This document shows, piece after piece, positions 16,083 through 25,120 of a stretch of 64,000 nucleotides of DNA. The stretch is from Escherichia phage ECML-363: sequence record OL631483.1, one strand, 5' to 3'. Numbering within the stretch: position 1 is the stretch's first letter; every line of letters starts with the position of its first letter. Under the pieces are notes generated by a model that saw only the letters and a program-made list of their open reading frames with translations, did not search any database and was not told the DNA's origin. The position numbers and the translations under genes are program-made.

Positions 16083-16112
16083 ACTATAACACAACACGAG
16101 GGACTTGTAAAC
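16083..16112 (-). promoter_or_regulatory. T4-type early promoter (GTTTACA -17 bp- TATAGT)
   Basis: Minus-sense GTTTACAAGTCCCTCGTGTTGTGTTATAGT; ~50-bp module nearly identical to the one at 31858-31909. Confidence 0.6.
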
Positions 16113-18169
16113 TACATTTTGAACTTTTTAGACATTCCGTTAATGTTAACCAAAGAAGCTAAGATTTGAGAAACTTCGTTTTCCTCTTCTTTTGATTCTT
16201 CTACAAGGAATTGATTAAATCCAGCCATTGGACGAACTTCACCAGTTTCCATTAGATGGTCGCCATCATATACTGATTCTTCTAATTGTTCAGAAGGAGG
16301 AACGATTGTACCTTCGATTAGATACTTGTTATAAGCAGTTTCTTTCATAAAGTAAGTACTTACTTTATTAATCTTCAGTAAAATTCCACGTGGTAGAATA
16401 ACTTCAGCTTCTGATGGAAATCCTGATAAATGACCCGGAACGATAACTTTAACTCGTTCAGCTCCTTTAATTACCATACCCACGCTAGTTTCAGCATCTT
16501 CATTAGCATATGTAGAATGACTACCCATATGCATCAAATCTTCTGCATCAACGGAACCTTCTCCTTCACCAGAAAATACTGCTCCGGAATCATCTAAGGC
16601 CATATAATTTTTACCATACTCACCAAAGATATTTGGTTTAAGTGATGTCGATACGAAGTTCTTGAAATAGAACATTTTATTTTCAATGTTATGACGCAAA
16701 GTTTTAAAAGTAACTTCTTGTCCACGGTAAAGTGTAGTTCCTGGAGGAAGAACTGAACCTTTAACGAATGCAGAATCAAGCGTCTCAATATGTTTAATAG
16801 CTCGTTCCATATATTCTTCACGGGTAGAATCTGGTTTACCCAAAAGGAACGAGTTCATTTCAACATATGAATCTGCGCAATAATCTTCAATTACGTCAGA
16901 TTCAGCCTGAGTTAATCCTTTTGGAGTTACTTCGGTGCTTGCATATTCATACGCCTGAGCAGCGGATTCATCAATTAATTTATAAATGCCATTCATGACA
17001 AATTGAATAATAGCTGTCTTTTCATCTGGCGTAGCTTTAGAACCTTTAACTAAATCATTGACAATTTTCTTAATAACATCAAAGCTATTAGAAATATTAA
17101 TGTCAGCAAGATCGCTTAAAATTTTATCAGTTTTGTAATTAAAGAAGTCTTTATTCTTTAAATATTCCTGGGAACCTTGATATGATGTATCGCTCTGCAA
17201 CTTGATAGATGGATCGCGTAAACGTGCATGGGCTAATGCAATATGATTTCGGAAACTTTCTAGTTCATAATCGCTAGATTTAAAACGAGAAGCACTTCTC
17301 ATACCGCCGATAGCTCCTTTGCTAAAGTTTGAACCAATCTGAATAACGCCAGAGTTCATTGGTCCTTCTGCTTTATATACCGGAACTTTAGATTCAAACT
17401 CTTGATATTTCTTAGCAGCGAAGCTATCACCCTGAAGTGAAGCATCAACAGTAGAATATTGAGCTTGTGCTGCTAATCGACGACTAATTTTAGTTTTCTG
17501 AATAACAGCTTGATCCGTACGCTTATCATTTTCTAAAGCAATAGAAGCAGCAACTGCGACAGCTTTAGGAACAGCATTACCTGTTTTAACGTCTACATAA
17601 ACATCACCAACCTTTGATTCAACTTTTGTGAATAACTCAGTTGAAATAGGAGGTACACCTGGAATGTCTTCTAAATTGGCATTTTTACGGTAAACCATAA
17701 TATATGCATATTTCTTATCATAGTCCCAGATTTCCTTTAAAAGAACATATCGACCTGCTCCTTTAGTACGTACTAAACGGTCAGCAATAACTTGCATTTG
17801 ACGAGCAGCGCCATTTGTTTTACTTTTTAGTACGCGGAATAGGCATGCATCAATTTTATACTGTTTCATTGTTTGAAGAGCAGTATCAAAAACCGCATTA
17901 ATGACACCAATTGGATTTCCACCCAAGTTTTTAAGCTTGACTAATGATAATTTCTCGTTGACACCTATCATTACGATATGCATCATTTTGTCGCCTGGCT
18001 TAACGTTTTTATTCGTATCACCGCCAGAGGTGTATGTACAAAATCGAAATCCAGGAAGAACGCTTTCTTCACCGGCTTGAATAGCAAAAATTTGAGGTAT
18101 TTTATGCTTAGGATTTAAGTTAACAACCGGCGCCGAAGCGCCGTCAAATAATTCTGTAATAAGTTCCAT
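16112..18169 (-). CDS. Alt-like ADP-ribosyltransferase, second paralog
   Basis: 685-aa ORF; N-terminus MELITELFDGASAPVVNLNPKHKIPQIFAIQ... parallels Alt; R-S-E ART motifs present (TLYRGQ, FVSTSL, SEAEVILPRG). Confidence 0.85.
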   Translation of the reverse strand: MELITELFDGASAPVVNLNPKHKIPQIFAIQAGEESVLPGFRFCTYTSGGDTNKNVKPGDKMMHIVMIGVNEKLSLVKLKNLGGNPIGVINAVFDTALQTMKQYKIDACLFRVLKSKTNGAARQMQVIADRLVRTKGAGRYVLLKEIWDYDKKYAYIMVYRKNANLEDIPGVPPISTELFTKVESKVGDVYVDVKTGNAVPKAVAVAASIALENDKRTDQAVIQKTKISRRLAAQAQYSTVDASLQGDSFAAKKYQEFESKVPVYKAEGPMNSGVIQIGSNFSKGAIGGMRSASRFKSSDYELESFRNHIALAHARLRDPSIKLQSDTSYQGSQEYLKNKDFFNYKTDKILSDLADINISNSFDVIKKIVNDLVKGSKATPDEKTAIIQFVMNGIYKLIDESAAQAYEYASTEVTPKGLTQAESDVIEDYCADSYVEMNSFLLGKPDSTREEYMERAIKHIETLDSAFVKGSVLPPGTTLYRGQEVTFKTLRHNIENKMFYFKNFVSTSLKPNIFGEYGKNYMALDDSGAVFSGEGEGSVDAEDLMHMGSHSTYANEDAETSVGMVIKGAERVKVIVPGHLSGFPSEAEVILPRGILLKINKVSTYFMKETAYNKYLIEGTIVPPSEQLEESVYDGDHLMETGEVRPMAGFNQFLVEESKEEENEVSQILASLVNINGMSKKFKM

Positions 18170-18172
18170 GAT

Positions 18173-20266
18173 TTATCCTTGAACGAACTTGTAAGGCATG
18201 TTTGTAATATCTATGCAAGACGCAATAATTCCAAGAGATGATTCTACTTTCTGTTTAATATTTGATGAAACAAATGATGCAAAGTCAACTCTGTCTTCTA
18301 TTTCAATATCACCTGTCATTGCAACCAATTCACCAGTTTCCATTAAATGGTCTCCATCATAGATTACCGATTCGGTGAGCTCTTCCGTGGTCATAACTTC
18401 AGCTTGAATGAGTTTTGTATTATTAGATGTTGTTCCGTCATTATTAGAAGCATCAGTTATTTTATTAACCTTGACCATCAATCCGCGTGGTAGAATAACT
18501 TCAGCTTCTGTTGCTATTCCGAGACTTCCTGGATATACAACATTAACTTTATGAGCTCCATCAATTGCCCATCCTATTTGAACTTTAACATATTCAGGAT
18601 TTTCTTTATACGCTCTTATTTCGTTTGGATTAATAGTTATTCCTTCTTCATTTTTATCAACTGTTAATTCGTTACGAGCTTCTGGTTCTAAAAGACCAAT
18701 ACCAGCATGTGTGATTCCAAAACGTCCAAAAATGATAGGAGTTAAAGAAGTAGATACAAAATTTCTGAAGTAGAACACTTTATTTTTAACTAACGCTTCA
18801 TATATAGGAGCAGTCATACTTTGAGCACGATAAACTGTAATGCCTTCTGGTATACGGTCACCATTTTCAAAAGCTGAATCTAAGTTATTTATAGCAGATT
18901 CAATTTCTTTTTCACTCATTACATCATATCGTTCTGGATTGTAACGACCTAAAAGAAGATTATTGATGTCAGTATATCCTGAACCGCAATATTCTCTAAT
19001 GCCACGCTTTTGTGATGGAGTATATTTAGAACCATCGCGGGCAATAGTAATATCAATCATTGGACCAGCACCAATTCCAGAAAAACTGTAAATCATTCGT
19101 TTGAGGAATTTAGTTTTTGCTGCGTTCCAGGAATTTTTAGTTATTTCTTCCCAGACTTCATCTGGTTGTCCTTTACGATTTTTATTATGATTAGCAAGCC
19201 ATTTATCTTTATAATCTTCAAAGAATTGATTTACAGCTGCTGCGTATTTCTCTAAACATTTTATTGAAGTAGTTGGTTCATTTTTAATTGCATTAAAAAT
19301 TACTTCTTTAATTTTTTCTGAAACTTCACCGACTTGACTCATTGGAAAGAATTTATAATCATAGTGAAGTTCATCTGCCGTTCCTTCAGCAATAATTTTT
19401 GCTGCCTTTGTTTTAGAAGCTAATGAATTAATTCCAATTTTCATTTCTTCTGCTTCGGGAATTAAAGGTGCAGTAGCTGGTTTATTAAAATTAGCTGCTG
19501 TAGATTCATACTTCTGGAATAATTCACTTTCAAATCTAGAAGATTCCAATGACTGACTTTGTGCAATTGCTCTACGGGAAATTTTAACTTTAACGATTAC
19601 GGCTTGGTCAGAACGTTTATCATTTTCTTGTGCAATAGATGCAGCAATTGCCTCATTTTTGGTTACTTGAGCTCCAGTATCTTTATTGATATAAACATCA
19701 CCGACCTTCGATTCAACTTTAGTAAAAAGCTCGGTGCTAATTTCTGGAACTCCTGGAATGTCTTCTAGTGATACATTTTTACGATGTATAAGAATATATG
19801 CATACTTTTTATCGTAATCCCAGAGTTCCTTAAGAAGGACGTATCTGCCACCTGAACGACTGCGGATGAGTCTATCAGCAATAAGTTGAATTTGTCGAGC
19901 TTGACCGGCGGTTTTAGACTTAAGAATACGAAGCATGCAGGCATCAATTTTATATTGACGCATTGTTTGCATTGCAACAGTAAAAACTGAATTGATATAA
20001 TTAATCGGGCTTGGACCAAGACCTTTTAATTTAGCAATTGAACCTTTAGCAGTTAATGTAAAAGGAACAATGTGCATCATTTTATCGCCCATCTTTAAAT
20101 CACGATTAGTATCACCTCCAGATGTATAGGTACATAAACGAAAGCCTGGTTGTTCAATTGCATCATCAACATGAACTGAAAAAATTTGTGGTATTTTCTT
20201 CTTTGGATTTAAGTTTGTAATCGGAAGAGTAGTATCTTCGTCAAATAATTCTGTAATGAGTTCCAT
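18173..20266 (-). CDS. alt: Alt ADP-ribosyltransferase (head-packaged, modifies host RNA polymerase alpha)
   Basis: 697/698-aa ORF MELITELFDEDTTLPITNLNPKKKIPQIFSVHVDDAIEQPGFRLCTYTSGGDTNRDLKMGDKMMHIV...; ART motifs TVYRAQ, FVSTSL, TEAEVILPRG. Confidence 0.9.
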   Translation of the reverse strand: MELITELFDEDTTLPITNLNPKKKIPQIFSVHVDDAIEQPGFRLCTYTSGGDTNRDLKMGDKMMHIVPFTLTAKGSIAKLKGLGPSPINYINSVFTVAMQTMRQYKIDACMLRILKSKTAGQARQIQLIADRLIRSRSGGRYVLLKELWDYDKKYAYILIHRKNVSLEDIPGVPEISTELFTKVESKVGDVYINKDTGAQVTKNEAIAASIAQENDKRSDQAVIVKVKISRRAIAQSQSLESSRFESELFQKYESTAANFNKPATAPLIPEAEEMKIGINSLASKTKAAKIIAEGTADELHYDYKFFPMSQVGEVSEKIKEVIFNAIKNEPTTSIKCLEKYAAAVNQFFEDYKDKWLANHNKNRKGQPDEVWEEITKNSWNAAKTKFLKRMIYSFSGIGAGPMIDITIARDGSKYTPSQKRGIREYCGSGYTDINNLLLGRYNPERYDVMSEKEIESAINNLDSAFENGDRIPEGITVYRAQSMTAPIYEALVKNKVFYFRNFVSTSLTPIIFGRFGITHAGIGLLEPEARNELTVDKNEEGITINPNEIRAYKENPEYVKVQIGWAIDGAHKVNVVYPGSLGIATEAEVILPRGLMVKVNKITDASNNDGTTSNNTKLIQAEVMTTEELTESVIYDGDHLMETGELVAMTGDIEIEDRVDFASFVSSNIKQKVESSLGIIASCIDITNMPYKFVQG

Positions 20267-20289
20267 CATATCCTCTCTAGTGTTTATTC

Positions 20290-20318: not shown

Positions 20319-20507
20319 TTAATAATCTATTGGTAATAGAGTACGATATATTTCAAACTTTGGACCTTTTTCATAAGCATCAAAAGTTTCTGTGAATTTA
20401 TTATAAGCATATGCATCTATAAATTCAATCATGATTTGCGATACAGAAGTAGAAACATCTCCACCTTCTTTTTGAGCCACGACAATTGTTTCTAAGTAAG
20501 CTTTCAT
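20319..20507 (-). CDS. Hypothetical small protein between DNA ligase and alt
   Basis: 62-aa ORF overlapping ligase stop by ATGA. Confidence 0.5.
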   Translation of the reverse strand: MKAYLETIVVAQKEGGDVSTSVSQIMIEFIDAYAYNKFTETFDAYEKGPKFEIYRTLLPIDY

Positions 20508-21967
20508 AAACCAGTTACCTCATGAAAATCGCCAAATACATCTTCGAACGTATTAGCTTTAGTTTTATCTTCACGTAAACGAATTGCAATTGGAAGAAAT
20601 AGCTTAACGTAATCAGTACGTCCATCTAATTTTACCCAGCCGTTGCATTCGCACTCTAGAATTTTTCCAATATAATAATTTTGGTTTTCCATAATGCGAG
20701 TACGATCAAGTTCATGCGATTTTATACCGGCTTTATCTTTTAAGCCTGAACCAGCATTTACTTTAATTTTTCCACACTCTGATTCAAGAATGAAACCACC
20801 TGCTTTAGTAGGGTCTTTACGGTGAGGATAAATTCCTACAATTTTTAAATCAACATCAATTACTTCTTTAAATTTATAAAGATTTTTTGAACGAGCATTT
20901 TCCCATAATCCATCGATATTTTTGAGAATAATACCTTCAAGACCTTGGTCAATATACTTTTTATAAATTACCTTAGCTTCATCTAGGTTATTTACTATCT
21001 GGTTTTCAATTAAAATTACTTTATCATAGCCTGATGTCATTTGTTCTAGTTTAGAAAAACGTACATCATATTTTAAACGAAATGCTGGAAGACCATATAT
21101 TTCTACTAATGGAACATAGTCCCAGACCTGAAACTTCATGCATTGTGCTTCTTTTTCAGAAATGGTTCCCTTTAAAGATTTATTAGCGATTCCATTAGAA
21201 GTAGTACGTGATTCAGCTACTTCGGCGAATTCTTTAGCTTTACTAATTTCAGGATAAGCATCAAAAAGAAAATCTAGGCCTTCTGGTTCCTTTTCAACTT
21301 GCTCATGGTATACCAATTCGCCATCAATTAACACACCTTCTGGATGAATCTGGCGAGCTTCTGCAGTCATTTTGATTAACTCTTCCTTGAGAAGATCTAA
21401 TCCTAGATATTCATTACCAGCTCGTGATAAAAGACGAACATCATCTAATTCATCACCTCTGACTTCAGCAAAGCACCGAGCTCCATCAGCTTTTAACTGG
21501 GCAAAAGCTGGAAATTTGATATTCTTATTAATGCCTTTTTCATCATAAGAACTTGCCAGCATTTGAGGTTGTTCAGGAATTAAACCTGGCCAAACTTTGT
21601 TTGCAATAGATACTGATGCACCACATTCAAGGTCTCGCATCATCACCCGACGCAAAACTTCAACATCATCTTTTTTACCGTCAGCAATATATCCAGTTAA
21701 TTCCTCAATTGCCGCATTTCCGGTCAATTTCCGAGTAGCTAACGTGAATTCAATGAAGTCAAGCATATCGGTAAGAGTCAACATTCCAAAACTCTGGGTA
21801 GTAATACCCGGTTTAGGCCATTTCTTGATATAATACTGTAACCCACGAGAATAAGTCAGACGATATACTCGTTTAAGCAATTCATTATCTTTATTCTTTT
21901 CAAGAATTGCTTGCTTCTGCTTAGTTGAACCAATAGATGCTATTTCGTTCAGAATTTTAAGAATCAT
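20504..21967 (-). CDS. 30: ATP-dependent DNA ligase gp30
   Basis: 487-aa ORF MILKILNEIASIGSTKQKQAILEKNKDNELLKRVYRLTYSRGLQYY...; adenylation motif AQLKADGARC (KxDG). Confidence 0.97.
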   Translation of the reverse strand: MILKILNEIASIGSTKQKQAILEKNKDNELLKRVYRLTYSRGLQYYIKKWPKPGITTQSFGMLTLTDMLDFIEFTLATRKLTGNAAIEELTGYIADGKKDDVEVLRRVMMRDLECGASVSIANKVWPGLIPEQPQMLASSYDEKGINKNIKFPAFAQLKADGARCFAEVRGDELDDVRLLSRAGNEYLGLDLLKEELIKMTAEARQIHPEGVLIDGELVYHEQVEKEPEGLDFLFDAYPEISKAKEFAEVAESRTTSNGIANKSLKGTISEKEAQCMKFQVWDYVPLVEIYGLPAFRLKYDVRFSKLEQMTSGYDKVILIENQIVNNLDEAKVIYKKYIDQGLEGIILKNIDGLWENARSKNLYKFKEVIDVDLKIVGIYPHRKDPTKAGGFILESECGKIKVNAGSGLKDKAGIKSHELDRTRIMENQNYYIGKILECECNGWVKLDGRTDYVKLFLPIAIRLREDKTKANTFEDVFGDFHEVTGL

Positions 21968-22233
21968 TGTTCATCCTTTAGAGTTTGGTTTACAGCTCTA
22001 TTATAAATCAATTCATCATTAAGCTCAGTCAAAGACCTGTGGTACGTGGTTCTAACTTTATTTCCTTGCATCCAGTGCTTGACGTAAATGAAACCTTGCT
22101 CTACACATTTTTTAAAAATTCGTTCGTCTTTTTGAGCTCGGAATTCTGGATTGCATCTAAAAAATTGATTTACGTGACCGTAATCACGTGTAGTATTACC
22201 TTCATTTTCATAAATAGTGTGAACAACAAACAT
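21964..22233 (-). CDS. Hypothetical protein (T4 30.1 position)
   Basis: 89-aa ORF, ATGA-coupled to neighbours. Confidence 0.6.
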   Translation of the reverse strand: MFVVHTIYENEGNTTRDYGHVNQFFRCNPEFRAQKDERIFKKCVEQGFIYVKHWMQGNKVRTTYHRSLTELNDELIYNRAVNQTLKDEQ

Positions 22234-23069
22234 TAGAATGCTCCTTGGAAAATATTATCACCGCTAGTAGGTCTATTATACAAATACTCTATGCCACCAG
22301 GTTTAATATAGTTCCATGTCTGAAACGGATGCGTCTGATATGGATGATATAGATTATAAGGATTAAATCCAGGAGTTCTCCAGGTAGTGTTCCAAGGAAA
22401 AGAATCGTTTTTAATCATCTTTTCAATTACATCTTTTACAGCTTTTTCACTATCAAAACTTTCTTTATTTTCCTTCGATGGAAAAAGCTTATTCTCTACA
22501 TCATTCCATGTATAAACTCGCTGTGCAGTTTTTGGAATACTGTCACGCTCCCCTCGAGCCATCCAATAAACAGGAACATTTAATATTTCACTTGCATGAT
22601 CGCAGTGGTGAGCGAGATCGTCAATATAACAAATTACGTTATATTTCTCTTTTGCCTTTTTGAACAACTCTTCTTTTGAAGAATCATGACCACACATCAA
22701 TACTTCTGAGAAGGCACCAGGAAAAAGAGCATTCAAATTAAATTGACGATTCAGCAGAGCGTCAATAGAATCACCCAATGCTGTAACAGCTACAAAATTA
22801 TAATCTTCTTTTAATTTGTTAATTACACATAGGGCATCTTTATATGGAGACAAATAGCGAATAAAATCTGAACGATTATACTTTTCGATTAATTTAACAC
22901 CAAGTTCTTCATCGCAATTAAAGAGCTTACCAGGAGAAATAAATTTTTCGTCCTGAATCATTTTTAAAATATGTTCCAACGGAAGATTATATTTTTGGGC
23001 AAAATAAGGAAGGCCCGATTGCCAGCTTAAACACACCCCGTCAATATCAGTCAAAATAGTAGGCTTCAT
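22233..23069 (-). CDS. HAD-superfamily phosphatase-like protein (T4 30.2 position)
   Basis: 278-aa ORF; N-terminal ILTDIDGV (HAD motif I DxDG) and later CYIDDLAHH (DD motif IV). Confidence 0.7.
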   Translation of the reverse strand: MKPTILTDIDGVCLSWQSGLPYFAQKYNLPLEHILKMIQDEKFISPGKLFNCDEELGVKLIEKYNRSDFIRYLSPYKDALCVINKLKEDYNFVAVTALGDSIDALLNRQFNLNALFPGAFSEVLMCGHDSSKEELFKKAKEKYNVICYIDDLAHHCDHASEILNVPVYWMARGERDSIPKTAQRVYTWNDVENKLFPSKENKESFDSEKAVKDVIEKMIKNDSFPWNTTWRTPGFNPYNLYHPYQTHPFQTWNYIKPGGIEYLYNRPTSGDNIFQGAF

Positions 23070-23530
23070 AGAGAGTCTCTTAATAGGTTTAACACATCAA
23101 TAAATTCAGCTTCGGTTAGTATTGTATCATCTTTTGTTAGACTACTAGCCATGCTGTGCTTCAAAACTTTTCCTTTCGAGGCTAGTAATGCATCACGAAA
23201 GCCCTTGTTTTGAATCGCTGCCTCAAAATACGCATTTGTGTATAATTCTTTCCACGCTGGAGAGTATCTTGAAAACGGAACTCCGAGCCAGAAGAGGGTC
23301 CCACGGTCCTGAGCTCTAGCATAAGACCTTCCAGCTTGTTGGGCGGCAAGCCCGGATAACCCAAATACACGACGTTGCTGTTCAACATTTTTCACCTTAC
23401 ATCCTTGGAGAAATCCTTCAAGACCTCCAAATTGGATACCATTCATAACAAAAGGCCATTGGGCGAAATTACTTAATGCACACGATGGCCATCTAAAATT
23501 GCTTCTAATCTCTAACTCAGGCATTTTCAA
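23066..23530 (-). CDS. NADAR-domain-like protein (T4 30.3 position)
   Basis: 154-aa ORF; ALSNFAQWPFVMNGIQFGGLEGFLQGCK parallels the YbiA/NADAR FSNF...WP...E.yFQ..K signature (by eye, no HMM run). Confidence 0.55.
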   Translation of the reverse strand: MKMPELEIRSNFRWPSCALSNFAQWPFVMNGIQFGGLEGFLQGCKVKNVEQQRRVFGLSGLAAQQAGRSYARAQDRGTLFWLGVPFSRYSPAWKELYTNAYFEAAIQNKGFRDALLASKGKVLKHSMASSLTKDDTILTEAEFIDVLNLLRDSL

Positions 23531-23723
23531 TACTTATAATTTCAACATCAGCCCAATGACCATAGCAAGGAAGACGAAATTCAACTGGCCAGTTAGGGTC
23601 CTTTTCTAATATAATAGACTTAACTTGTGGTTCTTCATGTTCATCAGTATATGGATTTTTATCTGTTACTTTATATGTGACCTTAATGTACTGAATTCCA
23701 AAAATCTTATTAATTATATTCAT
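23517..23723 (-). CDS. Hypothetical protein (30.3-prime position)
   Basis: 68-aa ORF in tightly coupled minus-strand operon. Confidence 0.5.
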   Translation of the reverse strand: MNIINKIFGIQYIKVTYKVTDKNPYTDEHEEPQVKSIILEKDPNWPVEFRLPCYGHWADVEIISIENA

Positions 23724-24219: not shown

Positions 24220-24237
24220 AAGGGGCCGAAGCCCCTC
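24220..24237 (-). terminator. Hairpin (GAGGGGC-TTCG-GCCCCTT) between 30.6 and 30.5
   Basis: GC stem with UUCG loop in minus sense. Confidence 0.5.
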
Positions 24238-25012: not shown

Positions 25013-25098
25013 TTTATTCTCCTTTGTTTGTGTAAGATAATACTATCACAAAGGAACCATACTGTAAACAACTTTATGCAATCTTTGGAAAATAAAAA

Positions 25099-25120
25099 AG
25101 GACTCCCGAAGGAGTCCTTA
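25099..25120 (-). terminator. Hairpin AAGGACTCC-CGAA-GGAGTCCTT
   Basis: 9-bp stem, GNRA-like loop, flanked by A-run. Confidence 0.55.

What the first reader, a model, noticed from the sequence alone, without database searches (positions are those of the whole stretch)
22233..23530. HAD-phosphatase-like and NADAR-like genes co-transcribed downstream of DNA ligase
ORF 22233-23069 has a clear HAD motif I (ILTDIDGV) and a DD motif IV, consistent with a nucleotide phosphatase. ORF 23066-23530 carries LSNFAQWPF...GGLEGFLQGCK, which resembles the NADAR (YbiA-like) fold. NADAR enzymes have been linked to hydrolysis of ADP-ribose adducts, including reversal of DarT-type guanine ADP-ribosylation of DNA. 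Located next to ligase and the ADP-ribosyltransferases, this could be a candidate ADP-ribose removal or anti-DarTG function. The NADAR call is by eye only and is tentative.
Basis: inference. Interest (0 to 1): 0.65.

Follow-up and report, generated by a model that had tools for sequence, protein, structure and literature searches.

The report
T4 genes adfN and 30.2

Summary
The window is a T4-like Tequatrovirus. The two ORFs are orthologues of T4 genes 30.3 (96% identical) and 30.2 (97%).

**30.3 (adfN):** a gp30.3-type NADAR.
- It hits Pfam PF08010 at E=1e-69.
- The catalytic residues E36, K43 and H123 and the C-terminal helix are intact.
- Published work shows that T4 AdfN removes ADP-ribose from guanine in DNA. 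It is necessary and sufficient against DarTG1.

**30.2:** a HAD-fold phosphatase.
- All four catalytic motifs are conserved across the family.
- It has a C1 cap and is closest to the NT5C 5'(3')-deoxyribonucleotidases.
- It carries a disordered C-terminal tail.
- Its substrate is unknown.
- T4 transposon sequencing shows it is dispensable and not needed against DarTG1, so it is not AdfN's partner.
- Its constant neighbour across T4-like phages is DNA ligase, not the NADAR.

**Corrections to the finding:**
- The real adfN start is the ATG at 23524, not 23530.
- Both genes lie upstream of ligase in the direction of transcription, not downstream.

The parts
23066..23524 (-). adfN (T4 gene 30.3): 152-aa gp30.3-type NADAR, a DNA ADP-ribosylglycohydrolase. 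Catalytic E36 (23417-23419), K43 (23396-23398), H123 (23156-23158). C-terminal helix 138-151.
22485..23069 (-). Gene 30.2, residues 1-195: C1-capped HAD-superfamily phosphatase core, NT5C-like. Motif I D8/D10, motif II T96, motif III K132, motif IV D150/D151. Invariant W16.
22233..22484 (-). Gene 30.2, residues 196-278 plus the stop codon: disordered, aromatic/Pro/Asn-rich C-terminal tail. It is variable or absent in homologues. It contains the island G-I-E-Y-L-Y (I260-Y264 = 22278-22292).
   Evidence: pLDDT below 50 except for helix 207-220 and a bump at 261-265. Tail variation across homologues.
23066..23069 (-). ATGA overlap: the adfN stop codon and the 30.2 start codon share these bases (translational coupling).
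   Evidence: Sequence read directly.
23517..23723 (-). Gene 30.4 (68 aa, unknown function), directly upstream of adfN. Its stop overlaps the adfN ATG (ATGCCTGA).
   Evidence: PHROG 2042. Always directly upstream of T4-type AdfN, in 27 of 27 such loci. Second and only other DarTG1-conditional hit in the T4 TnSeq.
21964..22233 (-). Gene 30.1 (DUF3045), between 30.2 and the ligase gene. It overlaps both neighbours.
   Evidence: Pfam PF11243, E=2.9e-64. Sequence.
20504..21967 (-). Gene 30, ATP-dependent DNA ligase. It is the conserved downstream neighbour of 30.2. Its gp45-clamp-binding loop motif L231-D-F-L-F235 lies at 21263-21277.
   Evidence: Pfam PF01068. Ligase lies directly downstream of 30.2 in 72 of 78 loci. 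Motif. Clamp binding from PMC6212786.

Best explanation
The region holds two neighbouring, tightly packed genes of a T4-like phage. They are transcribed on the minus strand in the order 30.4 > 30.3 > 30.2 > 30.1 > 30 (DNA ligase).

Gene 30.3 is adfN. It encodes a small NADAR-fold glycohydrolase that cuts the bond between ADP-ribose and the guanine bases the host toxin DarT1 modifies in phage DNA. This restores replicable DNA and neutralises the DarTG1 toxin-antitoxin defence. It acts as an orphan antitoxin. The mechanism is shown for the 96%-identical T4 protein and inferred here from intact catalytic residues and an intact C-terminal helix.

Gene 30.2 encodes an independent enzyme:
- It is a Mg-dependent HAD-superfamily phosphomonoesterase with a helical C1 cap.
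- It belongs to the clade of 5'(3')-deoxyribonucleotidases (NT5C).
- It most likely dephosphorylates a nucleotide-like small molecule.
- It carries a disordered C-terminal tail of unknown role.

Fold and active-site motifs of gp30.2 are shown here. Substrate and physiological role are inferred or unknown. The adjacency of the two genes in T4-type phages is synteny, not a functional module.
For: Identity of the region:
- The DNA is 98-99% identical to RB51, RB14 and ESh28.
- The gene order is the same as in T4.

AdfN:
- PF08010 at 232.7 bits.
- The family profile hits YbiA at E=0.003.
- Model pLDDT is 94.7.
- E36 and H123 are invariant and K43 nearly so.
- The protein is full length, unlike the inactive RB69 allele.

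Published evidence on AdfN:
- Deleting adfN sensitises T4 and T2 to DarTG1. Ectopic expression rescues RB69. E36A and K43A impair the protein. The purified protein removes ADP-ribose from DNA (PMC11825919).
- It is active on G-ADPr DNA and not on T-ADPr DNA (PMC11125620).
- T4 TnSeq under DarTG1 gives 30.3 a log2FC of -7.25, q=0.

gp30.2:
- The best-fitting solved structures by target-normalised TM-score (TMt) and rmsd are deoxyribonucleotidases: 3bwv TMt 0.70, 4yih 0.67.
- D8, D10, G11, W16 and K132 are invariant. T96, D150 and D151 are nearly invariant in 37 homologues.
- hhalign of the family against distant relatives gives probability 100%, E=7e-53.
- 28 of those 65 relatives hit Pfam NT5C, and their profile hits 3bwv at E=1.6e-6.
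- Some GenBank records already call it 'putative phosphatase' or "5' nucleotidase".

Independence of the two genes:
- 30.2 has log2FC -0.12 (p=0.61) under DarTG1. It is non-essential, with 72 of 72 TA sites hit.
- The NADAR lies within 4 kb of 30.2 in only 38 of 78 loci, whereas ligase follows 30.2 in 72 of 78.
- In at least 9 T4-like genomes the NADAR sits 50 kb or more away from 30.2.
Against: - No activity was measured for the proteins of this particular phage.
- The window's gp30.2 itself gets no Pfam or NCBIfam HAD or NT5C hit, so the NT5C assignment is transitive.
- No phenotype is known for 30.2 in LB, M9 or DarTG1 (the one further comparison read, sheet Data S3, condition not identified, log2FC 0.34, was also not significant), so 'nucleotidase' is an untested substrate guess.
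- AdfN-T4 does not detoxify DarT1 in uninfected cells and needs an unidentified T-even factor. Its in vivo mechanism is therefore not fully understood.
Confidence: 0.87

Rival explanations
1. 30.2 and 30.3 form a two-enzyme ADP-ribose module. The NADAR releases ADP-ribose and the HAD phosphatase processes the product, or it is the T-even factor that potentiates AdfN.
For: - The genes share an ATGA start/stop overlap.
- NADAR-HAD-ligase order recurs in some distant T4-like phages, for example L049-L052 and L093.
- Both genes are near-universal in Straboviridae, with 1439 and 1510 records.
- AdfN-T4 is known to need an unidentified T-even factor.
Against: - In the T4 TnSeq under DarTG1, 30.2 is unaffected (71 TA sites, log2FC -0.12, q=1). 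Only 30.3 and 30.4 are significant genome-wide.
- Only 21 of 80 gp30.3-type NADAR loci have a 30.2-like gene within 6 kb.
- In many T4-like genomes the two genes are about 55-60 kb apart.
Confidence: 0.04
2. gp30.2 is a replication-fork or DNA-end enzyme that works with its neighbour DNA ligase. One example would be a 3'-phosphatase that heals nicks. It would be tethered to the gp45 sliding clamp by the I-E-Y-L-Y motif in its tail.
For: - Ligase directly follows 30.2 in 72 of 78 loci across very divergent T4-like phages.
- The tail motif GGIEYLY is a position-by-position conservative match to the clamp-binding motif LDFLF. That motif occurs in gp43, gp55 and the ligase loop (PMC6212786).
- The pattern [LIVM][DE][FY]L[FY] occurs only 3 times in all ORFs of 60 aa or more in the window. 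One is the proven ligase motif and one is gp30.2.
- The motif lies in a disordered tail with a local pLDDT bump.
- There is a weak PHROG hit to polynucleotide kinase/phosphatase.
Against: - The C1 cap and the NT5C likeness point to a small-molecule substrate.
- About 43% of homologues have no tail.
- RB69 and some 94%-identical relatives lack IEYLY.
- The conserved island is GIEYLxxQPT. It does not co-vary with the ligase loop motif of the same phage.
- The gene is dispensable.
- The pattern was chosen after seeing the motif.
Confidence: 0.08
3. AdfN's main role is to reverse or buffer ADP-ribosylation by the phage's own Alt/Mod transferases, or to degrade small ADP-ribose signalling molecules. 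Countering DarT1 would not be its main role.
For: - The gene lies near two alt paralogues.
- Iyer et al. 2022 predicted that phage NADARs prefer soluble ADP-ribose derivatives (PMC9503650).
Against: - Direct genetics and biochemistry show activity on guanine-ADP-ribosylated DNA and DarTG1-specific conditional essentiality.
- adfN is non-essential without DarTG1.
- In many T4-like genomes the NADAR is not near alt.
Confidence: 0.04

Closest known systems
T4 AdfN (gp30.3), anti-DarT factor NADAR (Johannesman et al. 2025, PMC11825919; Cihlova et al. 2024, PMC11125620)
   Same: - 96% identical over all 152 residues.
- Same catalytic residues E36, K43 and H123.
- Same C-terminal helix.
- Same flanking genes 30.4 and 30.2.
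   Different: Six substitutions, none at known catalytic positions. Nothing else differs. This is the same gene in a sister phage.
DarG1 NADAR antitoxin of DarTG1 (Geobacter lovleyi, PDB 8bat)
   Different: - No adjacent darT gene.
- No N-terminal extension (152 aa against 219).
- His instead of Asp in the last strand.
- It does not work as an antitoxin in uninfected cells.
E. coli YbiA (PDB 2b3w) and Phytophthora NADAR (PDB 8bau)
   Different: The YbiA family has Glu in the last strand, whereas the gp30.3 family has His123. Sequence identity is about 18%.
NT5C-family 5'(3')-deoxyribonucleotidases (human/mouse cdN and mdN; S. epidermidis 3bwv; Pfam PF06941)
   Same: - HAD core plus a small helical C1 cap.
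- Motif I D-x-D-G-V followed by an aromatic residue and S-G-L (gp30.2 DIDGVCLSWQSGL against cdN NMDGVLADFESGL).
- Best structural fit among solved HADs.
   Different: - Identity is 17-20%.
- The window protein does not reach the Pfam NT5C threshold.
- It has an extra 83-residue disordered tail.
- Its substrate is unknown.
T4 gp45-clamp-binding proteins with the LDFLF motif (gp43, gp55, gp33, DNA ligase; PMC6212786)
   Same: gp30.2 has I-E-Y-L-Y in a disordered segment, preceded by P-G-G. The ligase has P-E-G-LDFLF.
   Different: The motif is not identical and is not conserved in orthologues. Binding is untested.

Membership tests
gp30.3-type NADAR (AdfN; Pfam PF08010) | Sequence match to the family model above the curated cut-off | tested here: met
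   232.7 bits against a cut-off of 36, E=1.4e-69.
gp30.3-type NADAR (AdfN; Pfam PF08010) | NADAR alpha+beta fold | tested here: met
gp30.3-type NADAR (AdfN; Pfam PF08010) | Catalytic Glu36 and Lys43, plus His in the last strand (this subfamily's replacement for Glu/Asp) | tested here: met
   E36 and H123 are invariant and K43 is at least 90% conserved in 37 homologues. All three are present in the window. Their roles are defined in PMC11825919 and PMC11125620.
gp30.3-type NADAR (AdfN; Pfam PF08010) | Intact C-terminal helix, lost in the DarTG1-sensitive RB69 allele | tested here: met
   Full length at 152 aa, with helix 138-151 in the model. The RB69 allele stops at residue 137.
gp30.3-type NADAR (AdfN; Pfam PF08010) | Removal of ADP-ribose from guanine in DNA, and protection from DarTG1 | not testable with these tools
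   Shown for the 96%-identical T4 protein.
DarTG1 toxin-antitoxin system (DarG1 antitoxin) | NADAR gene paired with an adjacent darT1 toxin gene | tested here: not met
   The neighbours are 30.4 (no Pfam hit) and the HAD gene 30.2. The gene is therefore an orphan antitoxin-like gene.
HAD superfamily | Rossmannoid HAD core fold | tested here: met
HAD superfamily | Catalytic motifs I (DxDx[TV]), II (S/T), III (K) and IV (DD) | tested here: met
   D8-I-D10-G-V12, T96, K132 and D150-D151 are invariant or at least 90% conserved. The second Asp marks a phosphatase rather than a dehalogenase (established knowledge of HAD enzymes).
HAD superfamily | Match to a curated HAD sequence model | tested here: not met
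   The window protein has no Pfam or NCBIfam HAD hit at E<=1. Only 9 of 37 homologues give weak PF00702 hits.
NT5C 5'(3')-deoxyribonucleotidase family (PF06941) | Match to PF06941 above the cut-off | tested here: inconclusive
   The window protein gives no hit. The link is transitive:
- the family profile aligns with distant relatives at hhalign probability 100%;
- 28 of those 65 relatives hit NT5C, best 40.2 bits against a cut-off of 24.8;
- their profile hits 3bwv at E=1.6e-6.
NT5C 5'(3')-deoxyribonucleotidase family (PF06941) | Small helical C1 cap between motifs I and II, with an aromatic residue eight positions after the nucleophile | tested here: met
   Helices 16-86 lie between motifs I and II. 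Invariant W16 aligns with the Phe of cdN. The base-stacking role of that Phe is recalled from the mdN/cdN literature and was not tested here.
NT5C 5'(3')-deoxyribonucleotidase family (PF06941) | dNMP/NMP phosphatase activity | not testable with these tools
   No biochemical data on gp30.2 were found in the library.
T4 gp45 sliding-clamp binders (LDFLF motif) | LDFLF-type motif in a flexible segment, conserved among orthologues | tested here: inconclusive
   IEYLY is present at residues 260-264 in a disordered tail. It is absent in RB69 and in L004/L005, and it does not co-vary with the ligase motif.

The most novel reading that the evidence does not exclude

Evidence that leaves this open:
- The stop codon of gene 30.4 overlaps the adfN start codon.
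- gp30.4 is found only with T4/Mosig-type AdfN and always directly upstream of it (27 of 27 such loci).
- It is the only other gene that becomes conditionally important in the published T4 TnSeq under DarTG1 (log2FC -1.79, q=0.014).
- Insertions in 30.1 and 30.2, just upstream of the essential ligase gene in the same operon, are fully tolerated. This argues against strong polarity there.

A polar effect on adfN remains the simpler reading.
Probability: 0.2. Interest if true: 0.5.

Novelty: already known. Interest (0 to 1): 0.18.

Why it matters
It matters little as a discovery. adfN is a characterised counter-defence gene of the best-studied phage, and some GenBank records already annotate 30.2 as a phosphatase or 5'-nucleotidase.

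The check is still useful in three ways:
- It shows that a reader working from raw sequence alone can recover a real anti-defence enzyme.
- It predicts that this phage is resistant to DarTG1, unlike RB69.
- It separates the characterised gene from its uncharacterised neighbour.

gp30.2 is a near-universal, catalytically intact but dispensable HAD phosphatase of T4-like phages. Its substrate and role remain open.

Tried and rejected
**Single-sequence searches.** Searching either protein against the PDB gave nothing significant. Family profiles and predicted structures were needed.

**gp30.2 as the AdfN partner.** I considered gp30.2 as the missing AdfN potentiator and rejected it on the published T4 TnSeq data and on the lack of conserved adjacency.

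**Clamp-binding motif in the tail.** I followed the tail motif IEYLY as a possible gp45 clamp-binding motif.
- The resemblance to LDFLF is real.
- The motif is missing in RB69 and in close relatives, and it does not co-vary with the ligase loop motif.
- It is kept only as a low-probability rival.

**Fusion proteins.** Fusion proteins in the wider family (P0258, P0317, P0210, P0248) gave no informative Pfam domains.

**Cluster names.** Cluster look-ups of distant relatives returned no names.

**Promoter scan.** The sigma-70 scan found no more sites than shuffled sequence would give (43 against 42 expected), so no promoter claims are made.

**Literature.** Searches for gp30.2 biochemistry found nothing.

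**Library.** The afdb50 fold library was unavailable.
Full report
**What the window is**

The 1.9 kb around the finding is 98-99% identical to Tequatrovirus genomes such as ESh28, RB51 and RB14, and 689 phage records match it. Gene order on the minus strand is the same as in T4:
- two alt-like ADP-ribosyltransferase genes;
- alt.1;
- gene 30 (DNA ligase, 20504-21967);
- 30.1 (21964-22233);
- 30.2 (22233-23069);
- 30.3 (23066-23524);
- 30.4 (23517-23723), then 30.5 through 30.9, rIII, 31 and cd.

The two ORFs of the finding are therefore T4 genes 30.2 and 30.3. Their products are 97% and 96% identical to the T4 proteins.

**Observation check**

- In gp30.2, ILTDIDGV is at residues 5-12 and DD at 150-151.
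- In gp30.3, LSNFAQWPF and GGLEGFLQGCK are present.

Two details need correction.
- The listed ORF 23066-23530 begins at a TTG. T4's annotation (459 nt) and the published residue numbering (E36, K43) fit the ATG at 23524, giving 152 aa.
- The genes are on the minus strand, so they lie upstream of ligase in the direction of transcription, not downstream.

Co-transcription is plausible.
- Successive genes overlap: ATGCCTGA for 30.4/30.3, ATGA for 30.3/30.2, TAATG for 30.2/30.1 and ATGA for 30.1/30.
- No late (TATAAATA) or MotA-type promoter motif lies inside the cluster.
- No minus-strand terminator-like hairpin lies between about 24200 and 20300.
- The sigma-70 scan was no richer than shuffled sequence, so I make no promoter claims.

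**Gene 30.3 is adfN, a NADAR**

Sequence and structure agree.
- The protein hits Pfam PF08010 (Phage_30_3) at E=1.4e-69.
- A profile of 37 homologues hits E. coli YbiA at E=0.003 across the SNFA motif.
- The AlphaFold model is confident (pLDDT 94.7).
- E36 and H123 are invariant and K43 nearly so.

The literature settles the function.
- Johannesman et al. (Nat Commun 2025, PMC11825919) renamed 30.3 adfN.
  - Deleting it makes T4 and T2 sensitive to DarTG1.
  - Expressing it rescues RB69.
  - E36A and K43A weaken it.
  - The purified protein removes ADP-ribose from DarT1-modified DNA.
  - It does not counter DarTG2.
- Cihlova et al. (PMC11125620) independently showed in vitro activity of the phage gp30.3 NADAR on guanine-ADP-ribosylated DNA and not on thymidine-ADP-ribosylated DNA. 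They describe His in the last strand as the hallmark of the gp30.3 subfamily.
- A T4 transposon-sequencing preprint (doi 10.1101/2025.11.20.689424) found 30.3 non-essential on K-12. Insertions were lost under DarTG1, with log2FC -7.25 and q=0.

RB69 is sensitive because its allele is truncated at residue 137. The window's allele is full length and keeps the C-terminal helix. I therefore predict that this phage resists DarTG1.

**Gene 30.2 is a HAD phosphatase of the NT5C-like clade**

Direct sequence searches fail.
- There is no Pfam or NCBIfam HAD hit.
- The only PDB hit is at E=1, to a deoxyribonucleotidase.

The evidence for the fold and family is as follows.
- The family's first 100 homologues are all from T4-like phages.
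- It conserves every HAD motif. D8, D10, G11 and K132 are invariant. T96, D150 and D151 are at least 90% conserved.
- The model is confident over residues 1-195.
- In Foldseek the best fits by target-normalised TM-score (TMt) and rmsd are deoxyribonucleotidases: 3bwv 0.70, 4yih 0.67 and 2i7d 0.65, at 4.5-5.3 Å. Dehalogenases score about 0.5 at 7-9 Å.
- An exhaustive profile search found 1494 cluster representatives.
- A set of 65 distant ones aligns to the gp30.2 family with hhalign probability 100%.
- 28 of those 65 hit Pfam NT5C.
- Their profile hits the full length of 3bwv at E=1.6e-6.
- The local signature DIDGVCLSWQSGL parallels cdN's NMDGVLADFESGL.

So gp30.2 is very likely an active Mg-dependent phosphomonoesterase with a small C1 cap. 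By family it is a nucleotide monophosphatase, but no substrate is known. Some GenBank records already call it 'putative phosphatase', "5' nucleotidase" or 'HAD-like hydrolase'.

**Are the two genes a module?**

No.
- Across 78 IMG/VR loci found with the gp30.2 profile, ligase follows 30.2 in 72. A NADAR lies within 4 kb in only 38.
- Of the 80 best gp30.3-type NADAR loci, only 21 have a 30.2-like gene within 6 kb.
- In at least nine T4-like genomes the two genes are 50 kb or more apart.
- At genome level both are near-universal in Straboviridae (1439 and 1510 records with matching genus counts). Co-occurrence therefore says nothing.
- In the T4 TnSeq, 30.2 is non-essential (72 of 72 TA sites hit) and unaffected by DarTG1 (log2FC -0.12, p=0.61) or by minimal medium (log2FC -0.10).
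- Only two genes are significant under DarTG1 genome-wide, 30.3 and 30.4.

**The tail of gp30.2**

Residues 196-278 are disordered and variable. About 43% of homologues lack a tail.

The T4-type tail contains GGIEYLY. This resembles the gp45 clamp-binding motif LDFLF of gp43, gp55 and the ligase loop (PMC6212786). The pattern [LIVM][DE][FY]L[FY] occurs only three times in the window's ORFs, including the proven ligase motif and gp30.2.

Several points count against it.
- RB69 and some 94%-identical relatives lack the motif.
- The conserved island in other genera is GIEYLxxQPT.
- It does not track the ligase motif of the same phage.

I keep clamp tethering as a low-probability rival.

**Verdict**

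The finding is already known. The remaining open points are the substrate and role of gp30.2, and the identity of the T-even factor AdfN needs. For the second, the published TnSeq and the strict adjacency point to gp30.4 rather than gp30.2 as a candidate, with polarity as the simpler alternative.

Noticed in passing
window 23517-23723 (minus), gene 30.4: This 68-aa ORF of unknown function overlaps the adfN start by 8 nt.
- In the published T4 TnSeq under DarTG1 it is the only significant gene besides adfN (log2FC -1.79, q=0.014; 2 significant genes in all).
- Homologues occur only with T4/Mosig-type AdfN and always directly upstream of it (27 of 27 loci; none in 91 other NADAR loci).
- It could be the unidentified factor AdfN needs, or the hit could be a polar effect.
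   Followed up: partly
window 22278-22292 (gp30.2 residues 260-264) and 21263-21277 (ligase residues 231-235): The disordered tail of gp30.2 carries I-E-Y-L-Y, preceded by P-G-G. This is a conservative copy of the gp45 clamp-binding motif L-D-F-L-F, which the neighbouring ligase carries in its flexible loop (P-E-G-LDFLF). The motif is not conserved in RB69 or in some close relatives.
   Followed up: partly
window 16112-18169 and 18173-20269 (minus): There are two full-length Alt-like ADP-ribosyltransferase genes in tandem, 685 and 698 aa. They are 42% identical and both hit Pfam ADPrib_exo_Tox. T4 itself has one alt gene plus the remnants alt.-1 and alt.-2 of the second copy.
   Followed up: partly
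window 24221-24236 and 25098-25119 (minus-strand RNA): Two G+C-rich hairpins have UUCG tetraloops in the mRNA sense.
- GGGGC-UUCG-GCCCC lies in the 30.7/30.6 intercistronic gap, just before the 30.6 ribosome-binding site.
- AAGGACUCC-UUCG-GGAGUCCUU, followed by a U run, lies upstream of the 30.8 gene and looks like a terminator.
   Followed up: no
window 23182-23388 (minus), inside adfN in another frame: This is the counterpart of T4's annotated overlapping ORF 30.3'. It is 68 aa here, 75 aa in T4 and 34 aa in RB69, and it is absent from divergent NADAR genes. The variable length argues against a conserved protein.
   Followed up: partly
loci L095 and L114 (IMG/VR contigs): In these non-T4-type contigs a gp30.3-type NADAR gene sits directly next to an ATP-dependent ligase-like gene, without the 30.2-type HAD between them. 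In L114 a distant HAD lies on the other side. NADAR-ligase proximity therefore recurs outside the T4-like gene order.
   Followed up: no
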